Of a stretch of DNA of 32,000 nucleotides, positions 10,110-27,864 are shown one piece after another. The DNA lies in assembly GCA_963750295.1 (NCBI GenBank), contig CAVVPY010000001.1, positions 1,542,782 through 1,574,781 of the forward strand. Reading direction: 5' to 3'. The stretch is from an uncultured Actinomycetota bacterium. Its GTDB lineage: Bacteria > Actinomycetota > Actinomycetes > Mycobacteriales > Jatrophihabitantaceae. The notes under the pieces were generated by a model that saw only the letters and a list, made by a program, of their open reading frames with translations, was not told where the DNA came from and did not search any database. The position numbers were made by a program, and so were the translations under genes. Each line of letters starts with the position of its first letter. The first letter of the stretch is position 1.

Positions 10110-10448
10110 TCAGGCGGGCGTCAGCGCGACGTCGCCGCCGCGCGTCTCGGCGTGCACCTCGAAGCGCATGGACGTGGCCTCGGCCATGCACTCGCGCATC
10201 GGGCGCACAAGGGTGCGGTGCGACGGGTCGCTCTCCCACGCCTCGAAGTGGGCGAGCGAGGTCCACTCGCTGGTGATGAGCCACTGCTCCGGGTCCTGCG
10301 CCGACCGACAGACCTGATCGACCACATGCCCGTCGACGCCGTTGGCGACGACGTAGCGGATCTGCTGGTAGGCAGCCAGGAACTCGTCAGTACGTGCTGC
10401 CGGGACACGGATCAGGAAGACGATGCGGGCGCTCGCACGGTCGTTCAT
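10110..10448 (-). CDS. Antibiotic biosynthesis monooxygenase (ABM; TcmH/ActVA-Orf6-like anthrone/quinone-forming oxygenase)
   Basis: 112-aa protein (RIVFLIRVPAARTDEFLAAYQQI...WLITSEWTSLAHFEAWESDPSHR), the ABM ferredoxin-fold pattern. Its ATG at 10448 overlaps the CLF stop (ATGA). The 303-aa extension to 11021 was rejected. Confidence 0.8.
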   Translation of the reverse strand: MNDRASARIVFLIRVPAARTDEFLAAYQQIRYVVANGVDGHVVDQVCRSAQDPEQWLITSEWTSLAHFEAWESDPSHRTLVRPMRECMAEATSMRFEVHAETRGGDVALTPA

Positions 10449-11695
10449 CGGTGGGCTCCTGCCGGGTCGGCTTCGCGCGGGGCGGTCAGCACGAGCGCGG
10501 AGTTGAACCCGTCGAACCCGCGGGCCCCGACCAGTGCGGTCGTGACGGGCGCGTCGACGGTGGCCGGGACGAAGGCGAGATCGCAATCCGGCGCCGGGTC
10601 GGCCGGGACGTAGGACCCGAGCATCGCGCCGCGATCGATGCTGAGCACGGCCTCCGCGGCGTCCAGCGCGCTGCCGCCCTGGTACAGCCTGCCGATCAGC
10701 GGCTTGTGCGTGCTCACGGGCACGTCGCGTCCTCTGAAGACCGAGTGCAGCGCAGCGGCCTCTGCCTGGTCGGCGTCGGGGACTCCGGCCGCATCGGGCA
10801 CCACGACGTCGACGTCGTCGGGGGTGACGCCGGCACGTTCGAGCGCCTGCTCCATGGCGCGGGCATAGTGGTTCGGCCAGGGGGCGCCTCGGGTGCCGGT
10901 GTGCGTCCCGTCGTGGGTCGCCGCGGCGCCCGCGAGCTCGGCGTAGATGTGCGCGCCGCGCGCGATCGCGTGGTCGCGGTCCTCGACCACGAAGACCGCG
11001 CCCCCCTCGCCCGGCACCCACCCGGTGGCGTTGCGATCGAAGGGCCGGTAGACGTCGGTGGCGCCGCGACTCGTCGCCAGCCGGCCGTGCGCGAGCTGGC
11101 AGGTCAGGGCGTAGGGCGACAGCGGGGCCTCGACGGCGCCCGCAAGCACGATCGGCGTTCCCCGGCGGACCGTCCGGGCGGCATGGGCCAGGCTGTCGAG
11201 CCCGCCGGCCGCCTCGGACACCACGACGGAACTCGGCCCCTTGGCCTGGTATGCGATCGAGACCTGCCCGACCGTGGCCGCGTAGAACCAGGCGATCGAT
11301 TGGTAGGCGCCGACGGTGCGTGCCGGGTCGGCCCAGAGTCGTTGCAGTTCGACCTGACCGAACTCGTTGCCTGCACTGGAGCTGGCCATGACGACGGCAA
11401 CGTCCGTCGGCGGGTGCTCGGACAGGTCCAGTTCGGCGTCACGCAGCGCCTGCCCGGTTGCCGACAGCCCGAGCCACGTCCAGCGGTCGGTCTGCACCGC
11501 GATCCGGCTTTCCACGTGCGACCGGACGTCCTCGCGGACTTCGCCGGCGACCTGGAGCGGATACTGGTCGGCGTCGAACCGGGTGATCCGGTCGATGCAG
11601 GATCGGCCCGCGGACACGGTGTCCCAGTGCTCGGCCGCGCCCGCACCGCTCGGGGCCAGGATCCCCACGCCGGTGATGACGGCTCCGGCGCTCAT
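10445..11695 (-). CDS. Type II PKS chain-length factor (KS-beta/CLF), with Ala at the conserved Gln position
   Basis: [24 protein letters not shown]...[40 protein letters not shown]...[15 protein letters not shown]...[11 protein letters not shown]. It has no active-site Cys, and its ATG at 11695 overlaps the KS-alpha stop (ATGA). Confidence 0.9.
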
Positions 11696-12966
11696 CGCGA
11701 GCCTCCCAGCGCGGTGAAGATCATCGCGGACTGGAAGCCACCGAAGCCGCTGCCGACGGACAGCGCTGCCCGTACCGACCACTCGCGTGCAGTGACCGGG
11801 ACGTAGTCGAGGTCGCACTCGGGATCGGCCACGGCGAGATTCGCCGTGGGCGGCACCACGCCGTACTCGACGGCGAGAGCGCAGGCGGCCATCTCGATGG
11901 AGCCGATCGCGCCCAGCGAGTGCCCGATCATCGACTTGATCGAACTCATCGGCGTCCGGTAGGCGTGTTCGCCCAGCGAGCGCTTGACCGCCGCCGTCTC
12001 GTGCCGATCGTTCTGCTTGGTTCCTGATCCGTGCGCGCTGATGTAGGAGATCTCGTCGGGATTGAGCCGCGCCTGGTGCAGCGCCTCGTCGATCGCCAGC
12101 GACATCTCCACGCCATCCGGACGAAGCCCCGTCATGTGGTAGGCGTTGCCACGACCGGCGTAACCGGCCACCTCGCAGTAGATGTGCGCGCCGCGTGCCC
12201 TCGCGTGCTCGTACTCCTCGAGAACCAGGACGGCGGCCCCCTCGCCCATCACGAAGCCGGACCGCCTCCGGTCGAACGGCTTCGAGGCGTGCTCGGGGTC
12301 GTCGTTGTCGGGCGTGGTCGCCCGGATCGCGTCGAACGAGGCGGCCGAGATCGGCGAGATCGGCGAATCGGACGCGCCGGCGATCACCACGTCCGCCTCA
12401 CCGTCCTGCACGAGGTGATGGGCGTAGCCGATCGCGTCGATGCCAGACGTGCATCCGTTCGAGACGACCTGAACCGGGCCGTGGGCGCCGAACCTGACCG
12501 CGACGTCGGCGGCCAGACTCGACGGCACGAGCGCCTGGTACAGGAAGCGCCCGGCGTAGTCGGCGTCCACCAGCCAGTCCCGGCCGCGGTCGCTGACGAC
12601 GACGAACTCGTCCTCGAGGCGCGTGGTGCCGCCGACGGCCGTGCCCAGGACGACCCCGGTGGACAGCGCGGTCGCCCCGTCGAACTCGAGCCCACTGTCC
12701 TCGACCGCTTCGAGCGCACCGGCCAGCGCGAACTGGATGTAGCGGTCCGAGCGGGCGACCTCGCGCGGTGACAAGCCGGCCTCGGCCGGGTCGAAGTCGC
12801 ACTCGGCACCGACCTGCGAGCGGAACGGCGCCGGGTCGAACAGCGAGATCCGCCTGGTTGCGGTACGTCCCTCGGTGATCGTCGACCAGAAGGCCTTGCG
12901 ATTCACCCCGCCCGGCGCGACGACGCCGACGCCGGTGACGACCGTGCGCCGGTTGTCGACCGTCAC
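11692..12966 (-). CDS. Type II PKS ketosynthase alpha (KS-alpha)
   Basis: [14 protein letters not shown]. The active site is [15 protein letters not shown], and the catalytic His motifs are [16 protein letters not shown] and [14 protein letters not shown]. The GTG start at 12966 overlaps the cupin stop (GTGA). Confidence 0.95.
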
Positions 12967-13385
12967 GGCGTCACCGCCTGGGCCATGAGCGCCGCGGCCT
13001 CCTCCTTGGTCTCGGTGTCGACGTGACCCAGGTCGGGGCGGGGTGCGAGCGGGCCGCAGTGGAACACGGCGCGCGCAGTCGTTGCGTGCGGGTTGCGCAG
13101 CCGGTGCCGGACGAATTTCGGCACCATCACGGCCTCGTCGACCTCGAGTCGGCGCGACTCGCCGTCGAGGTCGATATCGAGGGTGCCCTCGATGACGCAG
13201 AGGAACTCCTCCGAGTACGGGTGGTAGTGCTCGGCCACCGCCTCGCCGGGCTCGACGATGACGATGCCCATGAACCCGGACGTGCTGGCGACAGTTGCCG
13301 GGCCGAGCAGGACGCGGACGTCTCCGCCGCGGCGCGTGTTGTGCGGCGCGGACGAGAGCCCGACGGTCGGGACGGTGGTCGACAT
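12963..13385 (-). CDS. Cupin-fold polyketide accessory protein (TcmJ / WhiE-ORFII-like)
   Basis: 140-aa protein with a cupin core ([40 protein letters not shown]...[13 protein letters not shown]). It lies immediately 5' of KS-alpha, as in the tcm and whiE clusters. A GAGAGG RBS precedes the start. Confidence 0.8.
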
Positions 13386-13400
13386 GATGGTGTGCCTCTC

Positions 13401-14118
<718 letters not shown>

Positions 14119-14122
<4 letters not shown>

Positions 14123-15483
14123 GCTGCTTCCTCCTTTGGGTTGCACATCCGGTCGACGAGACCGGTGCTGTGGGTTGCCGTGCTGAACTGTGGATGCGCG
14201 AGAACGTCACGCAGGAACGGGATCGTGGTGCGGACGCCCGGACCGTCGACGGCGAACTCGGCCAGCGCGCGGTCCATCCGGTCGATGGCCTGGACCCGGT
14301 CCGGGGCCCAGGTCACCACCTTCGCGATGAGCGAGTCGTAATGGGGACCGAGGACGTAGCCGGGGTAGGCATGCGTGTCCACGCGGATGAAGGGACCGCC
14401 CGGTACGTCGAAGCGCTCGAGCCGGCCGGGCGTGGGCAGGAAACCGCGCGCGGGATCCTCGCCGTTGACGCGGCATTCGACGGCGTGCCCGGCGAAGGTG
14501 ACATCGGCCTGGCGGTAGGGCAACGGCCGTCCGGCAGCGGCGAGGATCTGCTCCCGGACGAGGTCGAAGCCGGTGATCATCTCGGTGACCGTGTGCTCGA
14601 CCTGGATGCGGGTGTTGATCTCCATGAAGTAGTAGCGGCCCTGGCCGTCGAGCAGGAACTCGAACGTCCCGACGCCGGTGTAACCGACGGCGAGGGCCGC
14701 CCGCAGCGCAGCCTCGTTGATTTCGCGCGAGGTCTCGGGCGACAGGTCCGGAGCGGGCGCCTCCTCGACGAGCTTCTGGTGGCGTCGCTGGACCGAGCAG
14801 TCGCGCGTACCCAGCCAGACGCCGTTCCCGTGCTCGTCGCACAGAACCTGCACCTCGATGTGCCGCGCGTCGGCCAGGTAGCGCTCGGCGTACACGCGCT
14901 CGTCGCCGAACACCGAGGCCGCCGTACTGCGGGCCCGAGTGAATGCCTCGGTCAGGTTCTCGCGACGCTCGACGACCGCCATCCCCTTGCCGCCGCCGCC
15001 GGCCACCGCCTTGATGATGACGGGGAACCCGATCTCGTCGACGACCTCGTGCAATTGCGCCGCACCGGTCAGCGGCTCGACCACGCCGGGCAGAAGGGGA
15101 AGCCCCTCGGCCGACATGATCTGCCGCGCGGCGGACTTGTCGCCGAGGCGTCCGATCAGGCCAGGCTCGGGGCCGATGAACGTCAGCCCGTACTCGGCGC
15201 ACATCTCAGCGAAGTCAGGATCCTCGGAGAGGAACCCATAGCCCGGATGGACGCCGTCTGCGCCGGTCTGCAACGCGGCCTCGACGACCGCGGCGTGATT
15301 CTGGTAGCTGCGACGGCTGGGGGCCGGCCCGATGTGCACGACGTGGTCGAAGTGCCGCGCCTGCCTCGGGTCGAGGTCGGGCGTGGACGCGACCCCGACG
15401 GTCTCGATGCCCATCTCGGCGCACGTCCGGGCCACCCGCAGCGCGATCTCGCCGCGGTTGGCGATGAGGATCCGCTCGAACAC
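14119..15483 (-). CDS. accC: Biotin carboxylase subunit of acetyl-CoA carboxylase (stand-alone AccC type)
   Basis: (M)FERILIANRGEIALRVARTC...GYGFLSE...PVIIKAVAGGGGKGMAVV...YFMEINTRIQVEHTVTE. It is 454 aa with no fused BCCP. The GTG start lies 3 nt after the BCCP stop. Confidence 0.9.
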
Positions 15484-15486
15484 GGC

Positions 15487-16056
15487 TCAGCCCTCCTCGA
15501 CCGAATCGGGACGGATGCGCACCAGCGGCTGGTCGAACTCGACCGGGGCACCATCGCCGACGAGGACGTCGAGGACCTCACCGGAGATCTCGGCCTCGAT
15601 GTTGTTCAGCAGTTTCATCGCCTCGACGATCCCGATGGTCTGGCCGGCCGCGACGCACTGGCCGACCTCGACGAACGGCGGCTCACCGGGGCTCGGGGCG
15701 CGGTAGAACGTCCCGACCATCGGGGACCTGACGGCGACACCATCGACCGACACGTCCTCGGGGACGACCGTCGGCTGAGCAGCGACAACGTGCGGGGACA
15801 CGGCTTCCACCGGGACCGCGGGCGCCACCGATGGGACCGGCACGGCGACAGCCGCCGTGGTGCCGAAACCGCCGACGGGAGCAGGCGCAGGATGTTCCCA
15901 CTCGACCTCGACGACGACGTCGCCCGACGACAGCCGCACACGACGCAGCGGTCCGTCCACGTCCTGGGCGAGAGCACGCAACTCCTCGCCCAGGCGCAGC
16001 AGCGCGTCCTGCTCGCCGGCGTTGCTCGCTCGGTTCTCCGCCGTCGCGGTCATCAC
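15487..16056 (-). CDS. accB: Biotin carboxyl carrier protein (AccB type)
   Basis: The C-terminal biotinyl domain is [51 protein letters not shown] (biotin-Lys in EAMKL). An Ala/Pro/Val-rich linker precedes it. The start is GTG 16056 (GTGA overlap) or ATG 16053. Confidence 0.9.
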
Positions 16057-17795
16057 GCCACCGCTTCCTCGGGATCGGTCGAGAGTGCAGCCGCGCCGTC
16101 GTGGACCACGGTCACGGCGATGTCACCGGTATCCCGGAACCGGGCGCGGCGCACGCGCACCAGCGTGGCGCTGTCCTGCGCGCACAGGACGTCGATGGCT
16201 CGCGACACCGCGGCGTGCAGACTCGACACCATCGCAGTCGGATCGAGCGCGCTCCCCCGACCGTCGACGTCCGGCTCGGGCAGCACCCCGTCGATGACGC
16301 CCAGCTCGAGCAGTTCGCGGGCGCTGATGTGCAACGCCCGAGCGGCCTCCGGCGCCTTCGCCGCGTCGGACCACAGGATGGCCGAACAACCCTCCGGACT
16401 GATCACCGAGTAGACGGAGTGCTCGAACATGAACACGCGGTCGGCGACAGCGAGCGCCAGCGCACCACCGCTCCCGCCCTCGCCGGTCACGACGGTGACA
16501 ACCGGAACCCGCAGCTCGAACATCGCGGCGATGCTGTCGGCGATGGCGAAGGACTGTCCGCGTTCCTCGGCGACCCGCCCGGGGTACGCGCCCGGGGTGT
16601 CGACCAGGGTGACGATCGGCAGGCCCAACTGGTCGGCCAGGCGCATCAGCCGCAGCGCCTTGCGGTACCCGTCGGCGTCGGGCATCCCGAACTGGCGCGC
16701 GACGAGCTCGCGCGTCGAATGACCCTTCTGATGGCCGATGACCATGACCGCGCGGCCGTCCAGTTGGGCAAAGCCGCCGACAATGGCGGGGCAGTCGGAG
16801 TTGCTGCGGTCACCATGGAGTTCGACGAAGCCGGTGAAGACGTGCGAGAGGTAGTCCAGAGTGGTCGGCCGGTCGGTGTTTCTCGCCTGGGCGACTACGG
16901 CCCACGGGTCGACGACGCGGACGTGCTCAGGGGCGGTGATCACACCGTCGCCCGTGTCGACACGTCTCGGACCGCGAGCCGGGCGCGCGGTCACCGTCTG
17001 CAGCAGCCGGGCGAGCCACGGGCGCAGTTCGTGCCGGTGCACAACCTGATCGACGTGGCCGTGCTCGAGCAGGAACGGGGCGGTCTGGAAGTCCTCGGGC
17101 AGGTGCTCGCGGATCGTCTGGGCAATCACGCGACGCCCCGCGAAGCCCATCCGTGCGTCCTTCTCGGCGACGACGACGTCGCAACTGGTGGCGAAGGATG
17201 CAGCGACCCCGCCGAAGGTCGGATCGGCGACCACGCTGACGGTGAGCAGCCCGGCCTCGCGCAGCGCGACGAGCGCTTGGCTGACCTTCGCCATCTGCAG
17301 CAGCGCAATCGTGCCCTCCTGCATGCGCGCCCCGCCTGACGACGTGACCAGCACCAGTTGGCGATGCTCGTCGACGCACAACTCGGCGACCCGGGTGATC
17401 GCCTCGCCGACGGCCGCGCCGAGACTGCCGCCCATGAAGTCGAACTCCATCACCGCGATGCCGATCGCCACGCCCCCGAGGTCGGCGCGGCCGGCCAGCA
17501 CCGCGTCGTCGAGGCCGGTGCTGCGACGCGCGGATTCGAGCCGGTCCCGGTACGGCTTCGAATCGACGAAGCCCAGCACGTCGGTGGCGCGCACTCGCTC
17601 GGCCAGGGGTTCGAAAGTCCCGGAGTCAACCAGCGTCTCGACGCGGCGCGCCGCGCTGAGGCGGCAGTGCCGGTCGCACTCGGGGCAGACCGCGAGGTTG
17701 CGGCGCCACCGCTTGCCGTAGTGCAGCGCGCCGCAGCCAGCGCAGCGGATCCACGCCTCGGTCGAGGATTCGGGTCGAGCTTGCAGCGCGGTCAT
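16053..17795 (-). CDS. Acetyl-CoA carboxylase carboxyltransferase, fused beta-alpha (AccD-AccA) polypeptide
   Basis: The N-terminal AccD half has a Zn ribbon ([27 protein letters not shown]) and [11 protein letters not shown]. The C-terminal AccA half has [27 protein letters not shown] and [13 protein letters not shown]. It is 580 aa from the ATG at 17795, which overlaps the TcmI-like stop (ATGA). The 733-aa extension to 18254 was rejected. Confidence 0.9.
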
Positions 17796-18124
17796 ACCAG
17801 CTGCCCTCCGGGGGTCCAGTCGTAGAAGCAGCGAGCCTGGGCGTCCGCCGGGGACTGCCAGTTCTCCAGGTAGGGGCTGATGTGCGGGCGCAGCGCCTCG
17901 CTCACCCGTGCGAACTCGGCGTGGGTGCGGACGGACTCGACGGCCTGGGCGCCGGGACGTTCGGTCTCGAGCAGGTGCACGTACAGGTCGGACAGGCGGT
18001 AGAGCGAGCGACGTCGCACCCCGGCGATGTTTGGCAGTTCGGTCGAGTCGGAATCGCCGAAGATGCGGGCGACCTCGGCCTCCGAGTCCGGCTTGATGCG
18101 GGCGATGATCAGCGATCGGTTCAT
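17792..18124 (-). CDS. TcmI-family polyketide cyclase (WhiE-ORFVII-like), first gene of the PKS operon
   Basis: MNRSLIIARIKPDSEAEVARIFGDSDSTELPNIAGVRRRSLYRLSDLYVHLLE...CFYDWTP is collinear with TcmI (recalled: ...AEHDTTELPLEIGVRRRVLFRFHDLYMHLIE...VFYSWT). ATG at 18124. Confidence 0.9.
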   Translation of the reverse strand: MNRSLIIARIKPDSEAEVARIFGDSDSTELPNIAGVRRRSLYRLSDLYVHLLETERPGAQAVESVRTHAEFARVSEALRPHISPYLENWQSPADAQARCFYDWTPGGQLV

Positions 18125-18248
18125 CTGGGCCTCTCGTGACTCTGCGGTGGCGCCGGGGGCGGCTGCGCTCCGAATCGGGTGCTGAACCAATCTGCGAGGG
18201 GAGGTGTCCCGACGTCGTGATGTACCGATCACCGCAGCGCTGGGAAGT

Positions 18249-18274
18249 GGTCACGTGCCCTGGTCAGGTCACGT
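18249..18274 (-). promoter_or_regulatory. Candidate operator: three GGTCA half-sites / duplicated GGTCACGT upstream of the PKS operon
   Basis: The plus strand reads GGTCACGTgccctGGTCAGGTCACGT (18249-18274), 125-150 nt upstream of the TcmI-like start codon. It also contains the CACGTG palindrome at 18252-18257. Confidence 0.3.
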
Positions 18275-20339: not shown

Positions 20340-20438
20340 TCACCGGGCTTGTCGCCGCCGAAAACCCGTCGTTAAGTTCCCAACGACAACAGCACAAACC
20401 GGATGAATCGGCCCGAATGGGCCGGACGGAGGACGGCG

Positions 20439-21440
20439 ATGACCCAGACTGCGACCATCCCGGCGCCCGCGGATGACTGCTCGGCAGCCGACTACTCGCG
20501 CTGTTACGCGGTCATGACGACCATCCGCGCCTTCGAGAACGCGGTGCACGAGGCGTTCGCGACTGGCAGCGTCCCCGGTGCGGTTCATCTGTACGCGGGC
20601 CAGGAGGCTGTCGCGGCGGGCGTCTGCGACGCGCTGTCACCGGCTGACTACGTGTCCAGCACGCACCGCGGCCACGGGCACGCGATCGCCAAAGGCTGCG
20701 ACCTCGACGCGATGATGGCCGAGATCTTCGGGCGCGATGCCGGCCTGTGCCGCGGCAAGGGCGGTTCGATGCACATCGCGGACATGAGCAAGGGCATGCT
20801 CGGCGCCAACGGCGTGGCAGCCGCCGGAGCCCCGATCGCCTGCGGCGGCGCGCTGTCGGCCAAGCAGCGCGGAAGCGGCCAGGTCGCGGTCACCTTCGTC
20901 GGCGACGGCGGGGTCAACCAGGGCGCCTTCGCGGAGAGTCTCGTGCTCGCCGGCCTCTGGCAGCTCCCCGTCGTGTTCGTCGTCGAGGACAACGGCTACG
21001 CGCAGTCGACGGCGTCGGCCCACCACCTCGCGGGACGTGGCGTGTGCGCCCGAGCCGAGGCCCTCGGCATACCGGCCGAGGTCGTCGACGGCTACGACGT
21101 CGTCGCGGTCCGGGACGCTGCCGGGCGCGCGGTCGCACGTGCTCGGTCCGGCGGCGGGCCCACGCTGCTGGAATGCCGCGCCTTCCGCTTCTTCGGACAC
21201 ATGGAGGGCTGGGACGGCCAGGAGTACCGCGGCGACGGCGAGGTCGATCGGCTGCGCAACGAGCACGATCCACTACAGCTGTTCCGCGCGCGTGCCGAAC
21301 GGGAGGGCCTCGCGGACCACGGCGAACTGGATCGCGCCGACCGTCGCGCGGCCGCCGCGGTCGCGGCCGCGGTGCAGTTCGCCCGCACCGCGCCCGATCC
21401 AGACCCGTCCGAACTCGTCACCGGCGTCTACGCCGACTGA
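20439..21440 (+). CDS. TPP-dependent 2-oxoacid/acetoin dehydrogenase E1 component, alpha subunit
   Basis: FENAVHEAF..G.VPGAVHLYAGQEAVAAGV...STHRGHGHAIAKG...GKGGSMHI, with the TPP motif GDGGVNQGAFAESLVLAGLWQLPVVFVVEDNGYA. The ATG at 20439 is preceded by GGAGGA (20428-20433); ATG 20403 is the alternative. Confidence 0.85.
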   Translation: MTQTATIPAPADDCSAADYSRCYAVMTTIRAFENAVHEAFATGSVPGAVHLYAGQEAVAAGVCDALSPADYVSSTHRGHGHAIAKGCDLDAMMAEIFGRDAGLCRGKGGSMHIADMSKGMLGANGVAAAGAPIACGGALSAKQRGSGQVAVTFVGDGGVNQGAFAESLVLAGLWQLPVVFVVEDNGYAQSTASAHHLAGRGVCARAEALGIPAEVVDGYDVVAVRDAAGRAVARARSGGGPTLLECRAFRFFGHMEGWDGQEYRGDGEVDRLRNEHDPLQLFRARAEREGLADHGELDRADRRAAAAVAAAVQFARTAPDPDPSELVTGVYAD

Positions 21441-21451
21441 TCCGCGCGAGC

Positions 21452-21481
21452 CCCCACCCCACCCCATCCGATCCGATCCGA
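21452..21481. repeat. Back-to-back pentanucleotide microrepeats (CCCCA)x3 (TCCGA)x3 in the E1-alpha/E1-beta spacer
   Basis: ccccaccccaccccatccgatccgatccga, read directly at 21452-21481 and ending 8 nt before the E1-beta GTG at 21489. Confidence 0.9.
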
Positions 21482-21488
21482 AGGTTAG

Positions 21489-22571
21489 GTGACCGACGTG
21501 GCCGACTTGACTCCGGCAACCGAGCCGCTCGCGGCAGCCGCGGTGCCCACCGCACGCGAGGCACCACGGCTGATCAGTTATCTCGATGCCATCACCGAGG
21601 CGATGGCCGGCGAACTGGCCCGCGATCCGTCGGTCGTCCTGCTCGGCGAGGACAGCATCGGCGGGACCGGCTGCGACGGCCGGCTCGGCAATGCATGGGG
21701 TCCGACGAAAGGGCTTTTCGAGCAGTTTCCCGGCCGGGTGCTGGACACGCCCATCACCGAGTCCGCATTCCTGGGCGCGGCGGTCGGCGCGGCGGCGACG
21801 GGCCTTCGCCCTGTCGTCGACCTGCTGTTCGTCGACTTCGTCGGCGTCTGTTTCGACCAGCTGCTCAATCAGGCGTCGAAGTTCCGGTACATGAGCGGTG
21901 GCGTCGCGCAGGTCCCGCTCGTGGTCCGAGCGATGTGGGGCGCCGGCATGCGCCGCGGCGCGCAGCACGCCCAGGCCCTGTACCCGCTCTTCGCGCAGAT
22001 CCCTGGCCTGAAGGTGGCCGTGCCCTCGACCGCCGCGGATGCCAAGGGCCTCATGGCCACGGCGATCCGCGACGACGACCCGGTCGTGTTCCTCGAGCAC
22101 AAGATGCTCTATTTCGTCCCGGGGCCGGTCCCGGCCGGCGAGCACCTCGTCCCGTTCGGACGCGCCGACGTCAAGCGCACCGGCCGTGACTGCACGGTCG
22201 TCGCACTCGGCAAGTCCGTCCATGACGCTCTGGCCGCAGCCGAGCCGCTCGCCGCCGAGGGCATCGAGATCGAGGTCGTCGACCCGCGCACCGTCGTCCC
22301 GCTCGACACCGACGCGATCCGCACCAGCGTCGAGCGCACCGGTCGGCTCGTGGTGGTCGACGAGTCTTACCGGCGTTGCGGATTCGGGGCCGACGTCGCC
22401 GCAGTCGCCGCCGAGGAAGCCTTCCACGCGCTGACCGCGCCGGTGCGCCTCGTGACGCCGCCGCACACGCCGACCCCGTTCAGCCCGATTCTCGAGGACG
22501 CGTTCCTGCCGTCTGCAGCGGACATCGCCGCAGCAGTGCGCACGACGGTCGGCGCCGGCGTCGCGGCCTGA
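21489..22571 (+). CDS. TPP-dependent 2-oxoacid/acetoin dehydrogenase E1 component, beta subunit
   Basis: ISYLDAITEAMAGELARDPSVVLLGED...RVLDTPITESAFLGAAVGAAATGLRPVV...AQHAQALYPLFAQIPGLKVAVPSTAADAKGLM...VEIEVVDPRTVVPLD. GTG start at 21489. Confidence 0.85.
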   Translation: MTDVADLTPATEPLAAAAVPTAREAPRLISYLDAITEAMAGELARDPSVVLLGEDSIGGTGCDGRLGNAWGPTKGLFEQFPGRVLDTPITESAFLGAAVGAAATGLRPVVDLLFVDFVGVCFDQLLNQASKFRYMSGGVAQVPLVVRAMWGAGMRRGAQHAQALYPLFAQIPGLKVAVPSTAADAKGLMATAIRDDDPVVFLEHKMLYFVPGPVPAGEHLVPFGRADVKRTGRDCTVVALGKSVHDALAAAEPLAAEGIEIEVVDPRTVVPLDTDAIRTSVERTGRLVVVDESYRRCGFGADVAAVAAEEAFHALTAPVRLVTPPHTPTPFSPILEDAFLPSAADIAAAVRTTVGAGVAA

Positions 22572-22658
22572 CCCGTCGCGCCGACCGCGTGAACTCGGAA
22601 AAGCCCTCGGCCGCACCCGACAACATCCGCACCGTCCACCCGGAGAGGAAAACGCATC

Positions 22659-23054
22659 ATGATCGACCACCCGCACGTGCAGTTGATGGAGAAGGTGTAC
22701 GCAGCCTTCGGAAGCGGCGACGTCGCGACCGCCGGCAGCTACTGGACCGAGGACGCCGTCCACCACTATCCGGGACGCAACCCGTTGTCCGGAGACCACA
22801 AGGGCCTGGACGAGTCGATCGCATTCGCCAACAAGATCTTCGAACTCACCGAGGGCAAGTTGCGCATGCAGACCCTCGAGATCGGCGCGAGCGACACCCA
22901 TGCCTTCGCCATCCTCGACACGCACTACGAGCGCAAGGGACGCGTGCTCGACATGCCGTTCATCAACGTCGCCCGTATCGAGGACGGCAAGATCGCCGAG
23001 TTCTGGACCTATCCCGAGGACGTCTACGCCACCGATGAGTTCTGGAACGCCTGA
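22659..23054 (+). CDS. NTF2-like / SnoaL-like (ketosteroid-isomerase fold) protein
   Basis: 131-aa protein (LMEKVYAAFGSGDVATAGSYWTEDAVHHYPGRNPLSGDHKG...VARIEDGKIAEFWTYPED), the typical SnoaL_2/NTF2 pattern. A GGAGAGGA RBS lies upstream of the ATG. Confidence 0.7.
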   Translation: MIDHPHVQLMEKVYAAFGSGDVATAGSYWTEDAVHHYPGRNPLSGDHKGLDESIAFANKIFELTEGKLRMQTLEIGASDTHAFAILDTHYERKGRVLDMPFINVARIEDGKIAEFWTYPEDVYATDEFWNA

Positions 23055-23084
23055 GCGTTCCGGACACCGAGAGGATCCGAGATC

Positions 23085-24524
23085 ATGAGCCACATCATCG
23101 TAGTCGGCGGAAGCGTCGCCGGGCTCTCCGCGGCGGCCATGCTGGCCGACCAGGGTCACCGCGTCACGGTCCTGGAACGCGCGGCCGACCCGGGGGCGCA
23201 ATCACTCGCCGACGCGGCCGCCCGGCATCGCCCGACCGCGCCGCAGTACTCGCACTCGCACGCTTTCGCGTCGCTGTCCGGTAAGGAACTGCGCAACCGC
23301 TTGCCGGACGTCGCGCACACCCTGGCCGCGGTCGGGTGCGGTGAGGTCTTCCTCGCTGACTACCTGCCGCCGACGCTCGAGGCCTACGAGCCGCAGCCGG
23401 CCGACCGTGAGCTGCGCATGACACTGGCCCGCCGCTCGACCTTCGAACTGGTGCTCCGCGAACGCGCACTGGCGCGTTCCGGCGTCGAACATGTCAGCAA
23501 CGTGCGCGTCGTCTCGCTGCTCACCGACGCCGAGCATCCGGTGCGGGTCGTCGGCGTGACCGCCGCCGACGGCCGGAGTTGGTCGGGCGACCTGGTCGTG
23601 GACGCGACCGGCCGCCGGACCAACGGAGCCGACTGGCTGGCCCGGGCCGGCCTGCCGGCGCCGCAGACCGAGTCGAGCAGTAGCCGGATCGTCTACTACA
23701 CGCGCCACTACCAGCAGCTCAGCCCGCGTCCCGGTGGCCCGCTCAACCGCGGCTTCGGTGCCGGCGGCCTGTGGAACCACTACACCGCCGTGTTGTTCCG
23801 CGGTGACAACGGGAGCTTCTCGATCAGCATCGGTGTGCTGCCCACCGACGAGGCGATGCGAGCGCTCCGGGATCCCAAGGCGTTCACCGCCGCCGTCACC
23901 GCCACCCCCCTGCTCGCCGGCTGGCTCGACCCAGAGGTCTCCGCACCTACCTCGGACGTCGAGGTGATGGGCGGGCTCGACAACGCGATCATGCTTCCGC
24001 CCTCCGAGGCTCCGGTCGGCTTCCTCGCTGTCGGTGACTCCGTGTGCACGACCAACCCCGCTTACGGCCGCGGCGTCTCCCTCGCGTTGTCCGAGGCCGG
24101 TCTGCTCGCCGACGTGCTCGAAGAGTTCGGCGCCATCGATGGATTGTCGACCGCCGCCTACTGGCAGCGGGTCGAGCAACTGGTTCGACCGTGGTACGCC
24201 GAGGCCGTCACCAACGACCTGGGTCGCGCCATGCTGTGGGAAGCCACGCTGGCCGGCCGGCCCCTTGGCCGTCCGCCGCAGGGTGTGATCACCTTCGGCG
24301 CCGCGGTTGCCGCGTCCACCCGCGACCCCGAGATCTGGCGTCGCGTTGCCCGCACCATGATGATGCTCGCGCCGCCGTCCACGCTCTATGCGGACCCGGA
24401 GATCGCGGCGCGGATCGGCCGCGCCCTGGCCGGCGGACCGCCGCCGGAGCTTCCGGGCGCCACGCGCGACGAGCTGCTCGCCGCGATCGGAGACGACACC
24501 GTTCGGCTGGCCAGGTCGGCCTGA
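23085..24524 (+). CDS. FAD-dependent oxidoreductase / monooxygenase-like protein
   Basis: The N-terminal dinucleotide-binding motif is IIVVGGSVAGLSAAAMLADQGHRVTVLER. Later motifs are VVDATGRR and AVGDSVCTTNPAYGRGVS (GD motif). It is 479 aa, with a GAGAGGA RBS. Confidence 0.75.
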   Translation: MSHIIVVGGSVAGLSAAAMLADQGHRVTVLERAADPGAQSLADAAARHRPTAPQYSHSHAFASLSGKELRNRLPDVAHTLAAVGCGEVFLADYLPPTLEAYEPQPADRELRMTLARRSTFELVLRERALARSGVEHVSNVRVVSLLTDAEHPVRVVGVTAADGRSWSGDLVVDATGRRTNGADWLARAGLPAPQTESSSSRIVYYTRHYQQLSPRPGGPLNRGFGAGGLWNHYTAVLFRGDNGSFSISIGVLPTDEAMRALRDPKAFTAAVTATPLLAGWLDPEVSAPTSDVEVMGGLDNAIMLPPSEAPVGFLAVGDSVCTTNPAYGRGVSLALSEAGLLADVLEEFGAIDGLSTAAYWQRVEQLVRPWYAEAVTNDLGRAMLWEATLAGRPLGRPPQGVITFGAAVAASTRDPEIWRRVARTMMMLAPPSTLYADPEIAARIGRALAGGPPPELPGATRDELLAAIGDDTVRLARSA

Positions 24525-24526
24525 CC

Positions 24527-25225
24527 ATGACGACGCAGCCCGCTCGCGGCGCTCGGACCGCGTTCGCCGTCCCGGCGAGCACGATCGCGGCGGGCCGCGT
24601 CGCCGTACTCGGATCGACCGGAGGGACCGGCCGCGCCGTGATCGACGCGGCGCTGCGCGGCGGTCATCATGTCTCAGCCGCCGCGCGCCGTCCCGAGGAT
24701 CTCGCCGCCCGCTCCCGCCTGCGAACAGTGCGCGCGGACGTCGTCGACGGCAGCGGCGTCGACGAGGTGATCGCCGGTGCCGACGTGGTTGTCTCCGCGC
24801 TCGGGATCGGCATGCGCCGGCACGCGACCGAGGTCTACTCGCAAGGGGCGCGACACACCATCGACGCGATGCTCCGGCACAACGTCAGCCGGCTGGTGGT
24901 CATCTCGACCTCGTCGCTCGGCCCCCCGCCGCGGCGGCTGACCCTCGCTTGGTGGGTCGACCGTGGCCTGCTGCAACCACTCCTGCGCAAGCCCTACCAG
25001 GACATGCGGGCAATGGAGTCCCTGGTTCGCGAGTCCGGGCTGGCGTGGACGCTGCTCCGCGCCGCCCGGCTGACCGACGGACCGGCCGTCGGTCGCTACC
25101 GGTTGAGCGCGTCCGGACGCCTGGCCGGCGCATGGTCGATCTCGCGCGCCGACCTGGCCCACGCCGCCCTCGACCTTGCCTCCAGGGACGATGCGGCAGG
25201 TCGGACCTACGACATCGCCTACTGA
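24527..25225 (+). CDS. NAD(P)H-binding protein (atypical SDR / NmrA-like)
   Basis: The ATG at 24527 lies 2 nt after the upstream stop. RVAVLGSTGGTGRAVIDAALRGGHHVSAAARRP is a Rossmann motif. It is 232 aa. The 393-aa extension to 24044 was rejected. Confidence 0.75.
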   Translation: MTTQPARGARTAFAVPASTIAAGRVAVLGSTGGTGRAVIDAALRGGHHVSAAARRPEDLAARSRLRTVRADVVDGSGVDEVIAGADVVVSALGIGMRRHATEVYSQGARHTIDAMLRHNVSRLVVISTSSLGPPPRRLTLAWWVDRGLLQPLLRKPYQDMRAMESLVRESGLAWTLLRAARLTDGPAVGRYRLSASGRLAGAWSISRADLAHAALDLASRDDAAGRTYDIAY

Positions 25226-25262: not shown

Positions 25263-25499
25263 ATGACCACACACCTCAACGGCTCCGCCATCGGGTCGAC
25301 ACTGTCCTCGTACGCGGCGCGGCTCGCGTTGTTCGTCATCGACAGCTTGGCCTACTGCGGCTTCGCGATGACAGGACTGCCCCCGGGGCAACTCGAGGGC
25401 TACCTGCCGCGATGGCGCGCGCGGGCGCACGGCCCGACGCTCACCCGGGAGATCGAGGAGTACGTGCGCGATGCGCCGGTCGGACACAGGTCCGACTAG
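25263..25499 (+). CDS. Small hypothetical protein (78 aa, one hydrophobic segment)
   Basis: The ATG at 25263 is preceded by AAAGGA. GC3 is consistently high across the ORF. The sequence is MTTHLNGSAIGSTLSSYAARLALFVIDSLAYCGFAMTG..., with no recognisable family. Confidence 0.5.
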   Translation: MTTHLNGSAIGSTLSSYAARLALFVIDSLAYCGFAMTGLPPGQLEGYLPRWRARAHGPTLTREIEEYVRDAPVGHRSD

Positions 25500-25500
25500 G

Positions 25501-26238
25501 TCAGCGCACGTGCCGAACGTCGCCGGCGCTGACCTCGCGGGGGCCGTCCCCGGTCTCGATCACCAACATCCCGGATCCAGAAATCGCCGACGCCTTCCCG
25601 TGCAACTCACCGTCGGCCGACTCGACGACAATCACGCGGCCGATCGTGGCGCACCGTGACCGGTAGGTCTCGAGCAACCCCGAACCTGCGGCGTCCCCGC
25701 CGGCATCGATCAGGGCGTCGTACTGGCGTGCCAGCGCCGCCAGCACATCGGAAAGTAACCCGTCGGCATCCGTATCGCCGGCTCCGGCGATTGCCAGCGA
25801 TGTCGAATCGCGCACCGGCAGTTGCTGCGCCGTCTGGGTGACGTTGACGCCGACGCCGACGACCACCGCGTCGCCGCGCGCCTCGGTAAGGACGCCCGCG
25901 ATCTTGGCGTCGCCGACGAGCACGTCGTTGGGCCATTTCACGGCGACCATTGCCACGCGCGCGTCGAGCGCCTCGGTCACGGCCAGGCCCGCCAGCGGCG
26001 TGAGCCAGGCCCACGCCGAGGTGGGAAGCGGCGGCCGCAACCGGATGGAGAACAGCAGCGACGAACGGGCGGGAGCCTCCCAGCTGCGGTCGAAGCGTCC
26101 GCGCCCGGCCGTCTGGTGAGCGGCGACGAGGACCTCGCCGGCAGAGCCGCCGACGTCGGCGAGCAGATCGGAGTTGGTCGAGGCGGTCTCGTCGACCCGC
26201 CGCAGCGGGCCGAGGCTGGGTGGCAGGACCACGGTCAT
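25501..26238 (-). CDS. birA: Biotin--[acetyl-CoA-carboxylase] ligase (group I BirA, no N-terminal HTH)
   Basis: DETASTNSDLL...VLVAAHQTAGRGRFDRSWEAP (GRGRxxRxW)...AVKWPNDVLVGDAKIAGVLTE (KWPND)...VVGVGVNV. 245 aa. Confidence 0.85.
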   Translation of the reverse strand: MTVVLPPSLGPLRRVDETASTNSDLLADVGGSAGEVLVAAHQTAGRGRFDRSWEAPARSSLLFSIRLRPPLPTSAWAWLTPLAGLAVTEALDARVAMVAVKWPNDVLVGDAKIAGVLTEARGDAVVVGVGVNVTQTAQQLPVRDSTSLAIAGAGDTDADGLLSDVLAALARQYDALIDAGGDAAGSGLLETYRSRCATIGRVIVVESADGELHGKASAISGSGMLVIETGDGPREVSAGDVRHVR

Positions 26239-26248
26239 GGTTCTCAGG

Positions 26249-26929
26249 CTAACGAGCGCGGACGCGTGGCGGCACCCATCGGGCGGCGTGGGCGACGGAC
26301 AGGACGAGCCCGTCGCAGACCTGCCAGCGGCCCGGGACGCCGTCGCGTAGCCGTCGCGGCGGCGTCGTGCCGGCGGCGAAGTCGACGAGGAACGTCTCGC
26401 CAGGGCCGAGGTCCACTCGCATGTCGGCGATCCCCAGCACCCGGCCGGTCACCGGATGCCACACCTTGAACGCTGCTTCGCGACAGCCCCACAACACGGT
26501 CGCTGCCAGGCCCGGGTCGACGCCCCCACGGACGAGGGCCGCTCGAGCGTTCCCGCGCTCGTCGGCGTCCAGGCGCGCGTCGACCGCCGCGGGCAAGGCG
26601 ATCGCCGGCGTCGCGTCAATCCCGATCGTGCCGACCTCCGCGCGCCGGCCGACAGCTGCGGCCACGAACCCCTCGCAGTGGGTGATGCTGCCCGTCGTGC
26701 CTGGCGGCCACTGCGGGCTGCGGTCTGCGGCGCGGCCGACCGTCCGCTGCGCGACACCGAGCCGTGCGAGGGCCTGCGCGGCGCACGCACGTCCTGCCTC
26801 GAACTCTGCGCGGCGCTTCGACGTCGCCCGCTCCAGTCCGTTCGGACCAGCGTCGGCGACCGGGAGGTCGAGGTGGGCGCGACGCTCGACGGCGACCACA
26901 CCGGGTGGCAACAGGCCGTCGAGCAGCAC
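26249..26929 (-). CDS. 4'-phosphopantetheinyl transferase (Sfp/EntD type)
   Basis: KRRAEFEAGRACAAQALARLG, PQWPPGTTGSITHCEGFVAAAV, IGIDATP and VLWGCREAAFKV correspond to the EntD/Sfp-type motifs. The GTG start at 26929 is uncertain. Confidence 0.8.
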   Translation of the reverse strand: MLLDGLLPPGVVAVERRAHLDLPVADAGPNGLERATSKRRAEFEAGRACAAQALARLGVAQRTVGRAADRSPQWPPGTTGSITHCEGFVAAAVGRRAEVGTIGIDATPAIALPAAVDARLDADERGNARAALVRGGVDPGLAATVLWGCREAAFKVWHPVTGRVLGIADMRVDLGPGETFLVDFAAGTTPPRRLRDGVPGRWQVCDGLVLSVAHAARWVPPRVRAR

Positions 26930-26994: not shown

Positions 26995-27864
26995 TCAATG
27001 GCGTCCGGCCAGCCAGTGGCCGAGCTGCATCACCTGCGAGACGTCGGAGGAGCACGGGGTGAGCACCAGCTCGTCGCAGCCGGCGGTCTCGAACTCGTCG
27101 GCGACGCGCGACAGGCCGTCCTGGCCGATGGCGGCGTTGGCGAGGACCGCCTGCGCGTACGGCGGCGCGAAGCCGTAATAGTCGCGCAGATACGCGCCGG
27201 CCGTCTCCGCCGCAGCGTCCCCGAGCGCGAAGTAGGCCAGGGCGATCAGGCGCGGCCGGTCGGTGCGACCGGCCGCCTGCCAGGCCTCCCGAACGGCGAC
27301 CGCGCCACCGCGAAACATGCCGGGCCCGCCGCTTCCGGAGATCCAGCCGTCACCGAACCTGGCGGCACGGGCGATCGCCCGCGCAGCCTGGCCGCCGACG
27401 ACGAGCTGCGGCCCGCCCGCACGCCCCGGCTCAGGGCCGACACCGCCGGCGAAGCCGCGACGCTCACCGCCCCAGAGGCGGGGCAGCTCCTCGAGCTGCG
27501 CGTCGAGCAGGTCACCCCGGCGCGCGTGGGGCACGCCGCTTGCCCGGAAGTCGTCCGGTCGCGCACCGGCCGCGACGCCGAGCGTCAGCCTGCCACCGCA
27601 CAGCCGGTCGACGGTGGCAGCCTGCTTGGCGAGCAGCGCGGTGTTCGAGCGCAGCGGCGCGATCATCACCGACGTCATCAGTGGCTTGTCCGACACCGCG
27701 GCCGCGGCCGCGAGCGTCGTCAGGCAGTCGTAATTCTCGTAGACCAGGCGGTCGGTCGTCGCGAGGCACGAGAAGTCGGCTTGCGAGCCGATGACCGCCC
27801 ATCGCACCAGGTCGGCGGCCTCGGTCTTCGGTACTGCGTTGGGCAGTCCCAGTCCGATCTTCAT
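26995..27864 (-). CDS. Luciferase-like monooxygenase (LLM) class flavin/F420-dependent oxidoreductase
   Basis: MKIGLGLPN...ATTDRLVYENYDCLTTLAAAAAVSDKPLMTSVMIAPLRSNTALLAKQAATVDRLCGGRLTLGVAAGARPDDF is the typical LLM TIM-barrel pattern. 289 aa. Confidence 0.7.
   Translation of the reverse strand: MKIGLGLPNAVPKTEAADLVRWAVIGSQADFSCLATTDRLVYENYDCLTTLAAAAAVSDKPLMTSVMIAPLRSNTALLAKQAATVDRLCGGRLTLGVAAGARPDDFRASGVPHARRGDLLDAQLEELPRLWGGERRGFAGGVGPEPGRAGGPQLVVGGQAARAIARAARFGDGWISGSGGPGMFRGGAVAVREAWQAAGRTDRPRLIALAYFALGDAAAETAGAYLRDYYGFAPPYAQAVLANAAIGQDGLSRVADEFETAGCDELVLTPCSSDVSQVMQLGHWLAGRH

What the first reader, a model, noticed from the sequence alone, without database searches (positions are those of the whole stretch)
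25501..26929. Adjacent cluster-linked biotin ligase (BirA) and Sfp-type PPTase: a cofactor-installation pair
A group I biotin protein ligase (GRGRxxRxW, KWPND, no HTH) and an EntD/Sfp-type phosphopantetheinyl transferase are consecutive, 10 nt apart. They form the end of the long minus-strand gene string of the cluster.

They match the two carrier domains encoded in the PKS operon: the BCCP (EAMKL) and the ACP (LGLDSL). Cluster-situated PPTases are known. A dedicated biotin ligase next to one, serving a cluster-encoded BCCP, would make the cluster self-sufficient for activating both swinging-arm carriers. I am not aware of this pairing being described.
Basis: partly seen in the sequence, partly recalled or inferred. 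Interest (0 to 1): 0.6.

Follow-up and report, generated by a model that had tools for sequence, protein, structure and literature searches.

The report
Polyketide cluster with its own biotin ligase
An aromatic-polyketide gene cluster in a high-GC actinobacterium carries, side by side, its own carrier-protein activating enzyme and a rare second copy of the biotin-attaching enzyme, most likely to switch on the cluster's own carboxylase and synthase; it is a tidy but modest extension of known cluster self-sufficiency.

Summary
A group I biotin protein ligase (25501-26238, minus) and a PptT/EntD-type PPTase (26249-26929, minus) lie 10 nt apart. They end an eight-gene tailoring string inside a type II PKS cluster that encodes its own AccD-AccA fusion, BCCP, biotin carboxylase and ACP.

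The cluster birA is a true second copy. The housekeeping copy (50% identical) is on contig 8, in the bPH-birA/pccB synteny shared by relatives. In about 770 other actinomycete genomes sampled, no other extra birA outside that synteny was found. Orthologous PKS clusters in relatives, some with ACC genes, lack both genes.

The pair is not a one-off.

The PPTase is the genome's only Sfp-type enzyme. It and its one close relative replace a near-invariant Mg-ligand Glu with Thr.

Most likely the pair is a dedicated cofactor-installation module, with the ligase adding capacity rather than new specificity. In-cluster PPTases and ACC genes are known; I found no paper describing an in-cluster BirA. This scan earlier noted BirA+ACC+megasynthase clusters in Asgard archaea. 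Function is inferred only.

The parts
25501..26238 (-). Second, cluster-situated group I biotin protein ligase (BirA2), 245 aa
   Evidence: PF03099+PF02237. TIGR00121 154.8 bits, cut-off 83.1. GRGRFDRSW and KWPNDV present, best PDB match Mtb BPL. 48 of 54 columns that are >=95% conserved are kept. Nearest relatives P0364/P0365 are also 245 aa with the same start.
26239..26248 (-). 10-nt spacer between the PPTase stop (TAG) and the birA start (ATG)
   Evidence: Read directly from the sequence.
26249..26929 (-). PptT/EntD-type (Sfp-type) PPTase, 226 aa, with an active-site variant (GIDATP, CREA)
   Evidence: PF17837 79.7 bits, PF01648 only 16.8 bits. PptT/EntD structures are the best PDB matches. 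It is the only Sfp-type PPTase in the genome. E107T and K150R occur in 2 of 120 homologues. No start codon lies in the 19 in-frame codons upstream of the GTG.
26995..27864 (-). Luciferase-like monooxygenase directly upstream of the pair, co-linked with it in a second lineage
   Evidence: PF00296.
15487..16056 (-). Cluster BCCP (AccB-type), the presumed substrate of the ligase
   Evidence: PF00364. TIGR00531 135.5 bits, cut-off 115.2. VEAMKLLN motif.
13862..14122 (-). PKS acyl carrier protein, the presumed substrate of the PPTase
   Evidence: PF00550 hit at G000:C1:1556676-1556861, which is window 13895-14080. LGLDSL motif.
14119..15483 (-). Cluster biotin carboxylase (AccC-type)
   Evidence: PF00289, PF02786 and PF02785.
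16053..18254 (-). Cluster carboxyltransferase, an AccD-AccA fusion
   Evidence: PF17848, PF01039 and PF03255.

Best explanation
The two genes form a cluster-dedicated cofactor-installation module, co-transcribed with the tailoring string. The PPTase converts the PKS apo-ACP (Ser of LGLDSL) to holo-ACP. It is the only Sfp-type PPTase in a genome whose only detected non-FAS carrier protein is that ACP. The ligase is a catalytically intact, repressor-less group I BPL. It arrived or persisted as an old paralogue, not as a recent copy of the housekeeping birA. It biotinylates the Lys of EAMKL on the cluster's stand-alone BCCP, so the cluster's E. coli-type ACC becomes active when the cluster is expressed. 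Its role is extra biotinylation capacity timed with the cluster, not a specificity the housekeeping ligase lacks. Shown here: gene identity, intact motifs, second-copy status, rarity, position inside the cluster, and linkage in a second lineage. Inferred: co-transcription, the substrate pairing, and the capacity rationale.
For: Identity and intact motifs. Second copy with the housekeeping copy in conserved synteny. In the tree the housekeeping copy nests with same-family relatives (SH-aLRT 98), while the cluster copy forms a separate clade with P0002 (99) and P0004/P0007 (98). Rarity: birA is single-copy in the order sample (401 genomes) and the class sample (401 genomes), and every other apparent two-copy genome is a duplicated or split housekeeping locus. 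Linkage in a second lineage, where BirA, PPTase and LLM relatives share contigs of 30,852, 15,239 and 27,995 bp. Both genes keep full-length ORFs and catalytic motifs at 59% and 54% identity, which argues for purifying selection. The only Sfp-type PPTase and the only non-FAS ACP. Short co-directional gaps of 65 and 10 nt. Precedent for capacity limitation: co-expressing a biotin ligase with ACC raised pinocembrin from 196 to 367 mg/L in E. coli (PMC2981745). [quoted passage not shown]
Against: There are no expression or biochemical data. Relatives with ACC-bearing PKS clusters and the same EAMKL BCCP motif manage with one housekeeping birA, so the second ligase is dispensable in principle. The PPTase lacks one of three canonical Mg ligands (Glu to Thr) and falls below the Pfam ACPS cut-off, so its activity is not assured. 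No promoter or terminator consensus was found either way.
Confidence: 0.6

Rival explanations
1. Redundant passenger. BirA2 is an active ligase that came in with horizontally acquired DNA and is simply redundant with the housekeeping enzyme. It gives no benefit specific to the cluster, and its place beside the PPTase is historical accident.
For: Orthologous clusters in G029, G040, G037 and G026 work without it. The BCCP motif is ordinary. BPLs are generally promiscuous across species (established knowledge).
Against: Linkage with the PPTase and LLM persists in a second lineage at 54-79% identity, with intact ORFs and motifs. birA duplicates are otherwise essentially unseen in about 770 genomes, so redundant copies are evidently not tolerated for long.
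Confidence: 0.17
2. Specificity-driven necessity. The housekeeping ligase, adapted to the BCCP domains fused to actinobacterial AccA-type subunits, cannot modify the stand-alone E. coli-type BCCP, so the cluster needs its own ligase.
For: BirA2 and P0002 share deviations at four otherwise near-invariant positions (80, 158, 176, 220). The cluster ACC is of a different architecture from the host's.
Against: G037, G026 and G029 carry the same type of stand-alone BCCP with the same EAMKL motif and have only the housekeeping birA.
Confidence: 0.1
3. Self-resistance copy. The polyketide, or an intermediate, inhibits biotin protein ligase or biotin metabolism, and BirA2 is an insensitive target duplicate, as with other duplicated housekeeping genes in biosynthetic clusters.
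For: It is a diverged second copy of an essential enzyme inside a biosynthetic cluster, with changes at conserved positions. This fits the general pattern exploited in resistance-guided genome mining (established knowledge).
Against: A complete ACC with a BCCP substrate in the same cluster gives a simpler reason. No aromatic polyketide BPL inhibitor turned up in the searches. Related clusters lack the gene.
Confidence: 0.05
4. The PPTase is a degenerate or repurposed enzyme. With Glu to Thr at a Mg-ligand position and Lys to Arg next to the catalytic Glu, it no longer transfers phosphopantetheine efficiently, and the PKS ACP is served by AcpS.
For: E107T and K150R occur in only 2 of 120 homologues, and the protein scores below the Pfam ACPS cut-off. 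FAS AcpS enzymes can activate type II PKS ACPs (PMC9813960).
Against: D105, E151, K155 and the WPxGxxGSITHC motif are kept, and the variant is conserved in the 54%-identical relative. The genome's own AcpS has Val two residues after the catalytic Asp, so an acidic residue there is not needed across the superfamily.
Confidence: 0.1

Closest known systems
In-cluster Sfp-type PPTases of type II PKS clusters (JadM of jadomycin, Gra-ORF32 of granaticin, GrhF, Med-ORF24; PMC9813960, PMC9769936)
   Same: A PPTase gene sits inside an aromatic-polyketide cluster and is presumed to activate the cluster ACP. Deleting jadM or gra-orf32 strongly lowers production.
   Different: This enzyme belongs to the PptT/EntD branch. 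It has no Arg/Pro-rich N-terminal extension, which that paper reports for all characterised cluster-situated PPTases of type II PKSs. It carries a Glu to Thr change at a Mg-ligand position, and it is paired with a biotin ligase.
ACC genes embedded in type II PKS clusters (XanB1-B3 of xantholipin, LtmH1-H3 of lanthomicin; PMC9127795)
   Same: Carboxyltransferase, BCCP and biotin carboxylase genes lie inside the cluster for malonyl-CoA supply.
   Different: The published gene table for lanthomicin, as far as the passages I read show, lists no biotin ligase or PPTase. Here the enzyme that makes the BCCP functional is also encoded in the cluster.
Housekeeping group I BPL of actinobacteria (M. tuberculosis BirA, PDB 3RUX and others; Streptomyces Bpl in the pccB locus, PMC2886142)
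   Same: Same two-domain architecture without an HTH, same GRGRxxRxW and KWPND motifs, and the best structural match.
   Different: It is not in the pccB synteny. It is about 20 residues shorter at the N-terminus, forms a separate small clade, and deviates at six columns that are >=95% conserved.
Engineered co-expression of biotin ligase with ACC to raise malonyl-CoA (Leonard et al. 2007, as reviewed in PMC2981745)
   Same: The logic is the same: an over-produced ACC needs more ligase, and adding BPL nearly doubled flavanone titre.
   Different: That is a laboratory design in E. coli. Here the arrangement is natural and conserved in at least two lineages.
BirA+ACC+megasynthase clusters noted earlier by this scan in Asgard archaea (e1-5445100, e1-547192 and related notes)
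   Same: A biotin ligase is clustered with a carboxylase and an ACP-dependent synthase.
   Different: Those are archaeal type I megasynthase loci. I did not check whether the ligase there is a second copy, and no PPTase partner was mentioned.

Membership tests
Group I biotin protein ligase (TIGR00121 birA_ligase) | BPL_LplA_LipB catalytic domain followed by the BPL_C domain | tested here: met
   PF03099 58.3 bits and PF02237 34.4 bits. TIGR00121 154.8 bits, cut-off 83.1.
Group I biotin protein ligase (TIGR00121 birA_ligase) | GRGRxxRxW biotin/ATP loop and the KWPND lysine motif | tested here: met
   GRGRFDRSW and KWPNDV align to the same motifs in Mtb BPL and lie in conserved columns.
Group I biotin protein ligase (TIGR00121 birA_ligase) | No N-terminal DNA-binding HTH domain (group I, not group II) | tested here: met
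   The protein is 245 aa. The match to E. coli BirA starts at its residue 88, after the HTH. No HTH family was found.
Group I biotin protein ligase (TIGR00121 birA_ligase) | Biotinylates a BCCP lysine in vitro or in vivo | not testable with these tools
   Needs an enzyme assay or mass spectrometry.
Sfp-type (PptT/EntD) phosphopantetheinyl transferase | Two-lobed protein of about 230 aa with a 4PPT_N domain plus an ACPS domain | tested here: inconclusive
   PF17837 79.7 bits passes. PF01648 at 16.8 bits is below the 25-bit cut-off. The alignment to PptT structures covers residues 32-211.
Sfp-type (PptT/EntD) phosphopantetheinyl transferase | Three acidic Mg2+ ligands (Sfp D107, E109, E151; assignment from established knowledge) | tested here: not met
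   D105 and E151 are present. The middle ligand is Thr107, whereas 118 of 120 homologues have Glu.
Sfp-type (PptT/EntD) phosphopantetheinyl transferase | Catalytic Lys of the KExxxK motif and the WPxGxxGS(I/L)(S/T)H motif | tested here: met
   K155 is invariant and QWPPGTTGSITHC is present.
Dedicated in-cluster PPTase of type II PKS (Gra-ORF32/JadM kind) | Encoded within a type II PKS cluster | tested here: met
   The gene is flanked on both sides by PKS-associated genes.
Dedicated in-cluster PPTase of type II PKS (Gra-ORF32/JadM kind) | Arg/Pro-rich N-terminal extension reported as common to characterised members (PMC9813960) | tested here: not met
   Only 19 in-frame codons lie between the upstream stop and the GTG start, and none is a start codon. 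The N-terminus aligns with the family's start.

The most novel reading that the evidence does not exclude
BirA2 and the Thr-variant PPTase are a co-inherited, co-evolving 'holo-enzyme switch'. A cluster-controlled pair of post-translational activators gates both malonyl-CoA supply (through BCCP) and chain assembly (through ACP). The ligase has surface changes and the PPTase a remodelled metal site, each tuned to its cluster carrier and insulated from primary metabolism.
Probability: 0.15. Interest if true: 0.6.

Novelty: new variant of a known kind. Interest (0 to 1): 0.42.

Why it matters
Biosynthetic clusters are known to carry their own PPTase and their own ACC. A cluster that also carries the ligase needed to make that ACC functional completes the picture of self-sufficiency. 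It also suggests that biotinylation capacity can limit secondary metabolism in nature, as it does in engineered hosts.

Practically, anyone refactoring ACC-bearing type II PKS clusters for heterologous expression should consider co-expressing a biotin ligase. Because birA is almost always single-copy in actinomycetes, an extra copy may be a useful flag for clusters that have their own carboxylase.

The PPTase variant with only two acidic metal ligands is a small enzymological curiosity that can be tested with one assay.

Tried and rejected

- The one metagenome scan, with P0002 as query, returned only hits at 31-51% identity, none of them P0002's own contig.
- The one genome-contig scan, with the AccD-AccA fusion as query, returned only unfused AccD genes of non-actinobacteria.
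- Consensus promoter and terminator scans found nothing.

**Literature**
- Searches for an in-cluster BirA found nothing relevant.
- The frankiamicin paper has no mention of biotin, carboxylase or PPTase.
- The biotin-antibiotic megacluster preprint uses BirA only as an assay reagent.
- A search for Sfp Mg-ligand mutants failed.

**Readings considered and rejected**
- birA2 as the sole or housekeeping copy.
- birA2 as a recent in-genome duplicate.
- A lipoate ligase reading, prompted by the nearby orphan E1 pair. It is rejected because of the TIGR00121 score and the GRGR motif, and because the cluster has no lipoyl domain.
- An unusual BCCP motif as the reason for a dedicated ligase.
- Other two-copy genomes as parallel cases: all are duplicated or split housekeeping loci.

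Full report
**What is there.** The window is 70% GC and lies at G000:C1:1542782-1574781 of a 3.97-Mb, 94%-complete assembly. Third-position GC and Pfam scans define a type II PKS cluster. It has three parts:

- A minus-strand core operon:

| Gene | Coordinates |
|---|---|
| AccD-AccA fusion | 16053-18254 |
| BCCP | 15487-16056 |
| Biotin carboxylase | 14119-15483 |
| ACP | 13862-14122 |
| Cyclase | 13401-13862 |
| Cupin | 12963-13385 |
| KS-alpha | 11692-12966 |
| CLF | 10445-11818 |
| ABM monooxygenase | about 10110-10400 |

- A plus-strand operon: E1 alpha, E1 beta, SnoaL, FAD oxidoreductase and an NAD-binding protein (20403-25225).
- A minus-strand string: MDR reductase, cupin, amidohydrolase, SDR, SchA/CurD, LLM (26995-27864), PPTase (26249-26929) and BirA (25501-26238).

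The gaps are 65 nt between LLM and PPTase and 10 nt between PPTase and birA. The pair is convergent with the plus-strand operon, so it is inside the cluster, not at its edge.

**The ligase.** The 245-aa product has PF03099 and PF02237. It scores 154.8 bits on TIGR00121 (cut-off 83.1), more than the genome's other birA at 126.1 bits. GRGRFDRSW and KWPNDV are intact, there is no HTH, and the best solved relative is M. tuberculosis BPL. Of 54 alignment columns that are at least 95% conserved in 119 homologues, it keeps 48. Four of the six deviations (positions 80, 158, 176, 220) also deviate in its nearest relative P0002.

**It is a second copy.** The genome holds exactly two birA genes. The other, at G000:C8:167606-168439(-), is 50% identical. 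It lies between a bPH_2 gene and a divergently transcribed AccD5/PccB-type carboxyltransferase. The same synteny surrounds the single birA in 10 of 11 relatives examined, with PccB 75-91% identical and bPH present in 9. It matches the bpl-pccB linkage described for Streptomyces (PMC2886142). In a maximum-likelihood tree the contig 8 copy nests with same-family relatives (SH-aLRT 98). The cluster copy forms a separate clade with P0002 (99) and P0004/P0007 (98). So it is not a recent duplicate of the resident gene.

**Rarity.** No relative among 40 had an orthologue of the cluster copy; all matches were 41-52% identical. In 401 genomes of the order (at least 90% complete) and 401 of the class (at least 95% complete), only G074, G290 and G767 showed two matches; G024 did so in the relatives set. 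Inspection showed that G024 and G767 have two copies of the same PccB-birA-bPH locus. In G290 one copy lies beside PccB and the other beside bPH, each in part of that same context (contamination 4-6% in these three). G074 has one gene split across two contig ends. So no other non-syntenic extra birA was found in about 770 genomes. Among 5.8 billion proteins the nearest is P0002 at 59%, and all others are at or below 54%.

**The PPTase.** PF17837 scores 79.7 bits, but PF01648 only 16.8 bits, below its cut-off. The best structures are mycobacterial PptT-type enzymes and EntD. Family searches find only this gene and one AcpS (C1:2773535-2773825) in the genome. The only carrier proteins over the PF00550 cut-off are a probable FAS AcpP, the PKS ACP and one borderline hit. 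The sole Sfp-type PPTase therefore sits in the sole cluster that needs one.

Its nearest relative is P0122 (54%); the rest are at or below 49%. These two alone among 120 homologues have Thr in place of the Glu of GxDAE, and Arg in place of the Lys of KE. From established knowledge, that Glu corresponds to Sfp E109 and PptT E116, a Mg2+ ligand. D105, E151 and K155 are invariant. The genome's AcpS reads GIDVVP, so an acidic residue at that position is not universal in the superfamily. No N-terminal extension is possible, because the 19 in-frame upstream codons contain no start. This differs from the Arg/Pro-rich extension reported for characterised in-cluster PPTases (PMC9813960).

**Does the pair travel with the cluster?** Among sampled genomes, no. 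KS-alpha orthologues at 60-74% occur in G040, G029, G014, G037, G026 and G038. G037, G026 and G029 also have AccD-AccA, BCCP and BC next to or near the KS genes. G029 shares the E1 pair (about 70%), SnoaL and the FAD oxidoreductase. Yet each has one birA. Where examined (G029), that copy is in the housekeeping synteny, and the PPTase hits in G029 and G040 lie away from cluster genes. Their BCCPs carry the same EAMKL(L/M)N motif. This argues against a ligase required for specificity.

**A second lineage has the linkage.** Member lists of the 90%-identity protein clusters show the following:

| Contig length | Proteins on it |
|---|---|
| 30,852 bp | BirA P0364, PPTase P0366, LLM P0244 (79% to the window's LLM) |
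| 15,239 bp | BirA P0365, PPTase P0122 |
| 27,995 bp | BirA P0002, LLM P0367 |

I therefore infer that BirA, PPTase and LLM are co-located in an uncultured lineage. P0364 and P0365 are 245 aa with the same start as the window gene. Intact ORFs and motifs at 54-59% identity argue for selection on function.

**Mechanism.** The most likely reading (0.6) is that the PPTase makes holo-ACP and BirA2 makes holo-BCCP for the cluster ACC. Both would be expressed with the tailoring string, with BirA2 adding capacity when the ACC is induced. A laboratory precedent exists: adding a biotin ligase to over-expressed ACC raised pinocembrin from 196 to 367 mg/L (PMC2981745). The rivals are a redundant passenger (0.17), a specificity requirement (0.10), a self-resistance copy (0.05), and, not exclusive of these, an impaired PPTase (0.10).

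**Comparison and novelty.** In-cluster Sfp-type PPTases and in-cluster ACC genes are established. I found no paper describing an in-cluster biotin ligase in a type II PKS cluster. That search covers open-access text only. Earlier notes of this scan record BirA+ACC+megasynthase clusters in Asgard archaea, and I did not check those. I class this as a new variant of a known kind, of moderate interest.

**Unpublished genomes.** G004, G006, G015, G030, G200, G213, G302, G425, G434 and G602 are unpublished. They contribute only to the single-copy tallies. G030 also contributes one of the 11 loci in the tree and the synteny check (L021). No conclusion depends on them.

Noticed in passing
window 26249-26929 (-), residues 103-108 and 149-155: The PPTase reads GIDATP and CREAAFK where 118 of 120 homologues have GxDAE and KE. 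The same two changes occur together in its only close relative, P0122. This is a possible two-acidic-ligand metal site in an Sfp-type PPTase.
   Followed up: partly
window 25263-25499 (+): A 78-codon ORF with no Pfam or NCBIfam match ends one base before the birA stop, convergent with it. A perfect 7-bp hairpin (GTCGGAC ctgt GTCCGAC, 25479-25496) lies just past the birA stop. I did not establish whether the ORF is a real gene.
   Followed up: partly
window 20403-22571 (+); L126:1873-3794; L132:4511-6417: The orphan E1 alpha/beta pair recurs beside orthologous PKS genes in G029 (about 70% identity) and G040 (about 46%). It therefore looks like a conserved part of this cluster family rather than a neighbour by chance.
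   Followed up: partly
L116-L123 (G024, G767, G290, G074): Apparent two-copy birA genomes are artefacts. G024 and G767 carry the PccB-birA-bPH locus on two contigs. In G290 one copy lies beside PccB and the other beside bPH (4-6% contamination in these three). In G074 one gene is split across contig ends.
   Followed up: yes
whole genome G000: The genome appears to have no NRPS or type I PKS carrier domains. PP-binding hits over cut-off are limited to a probable FAS AcpP, the PKS ACP and one borderline hit.
   Followed up: partly
window 16053-18254 (-): The AccD-AccA fusion has about 165 residues ahead of the AccD zinc ribbon (residues 168-193). Relatives' orthologues align from residues 40-160 onwards, so the N-terminal extension or the start site is variable.
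   Followed up: no
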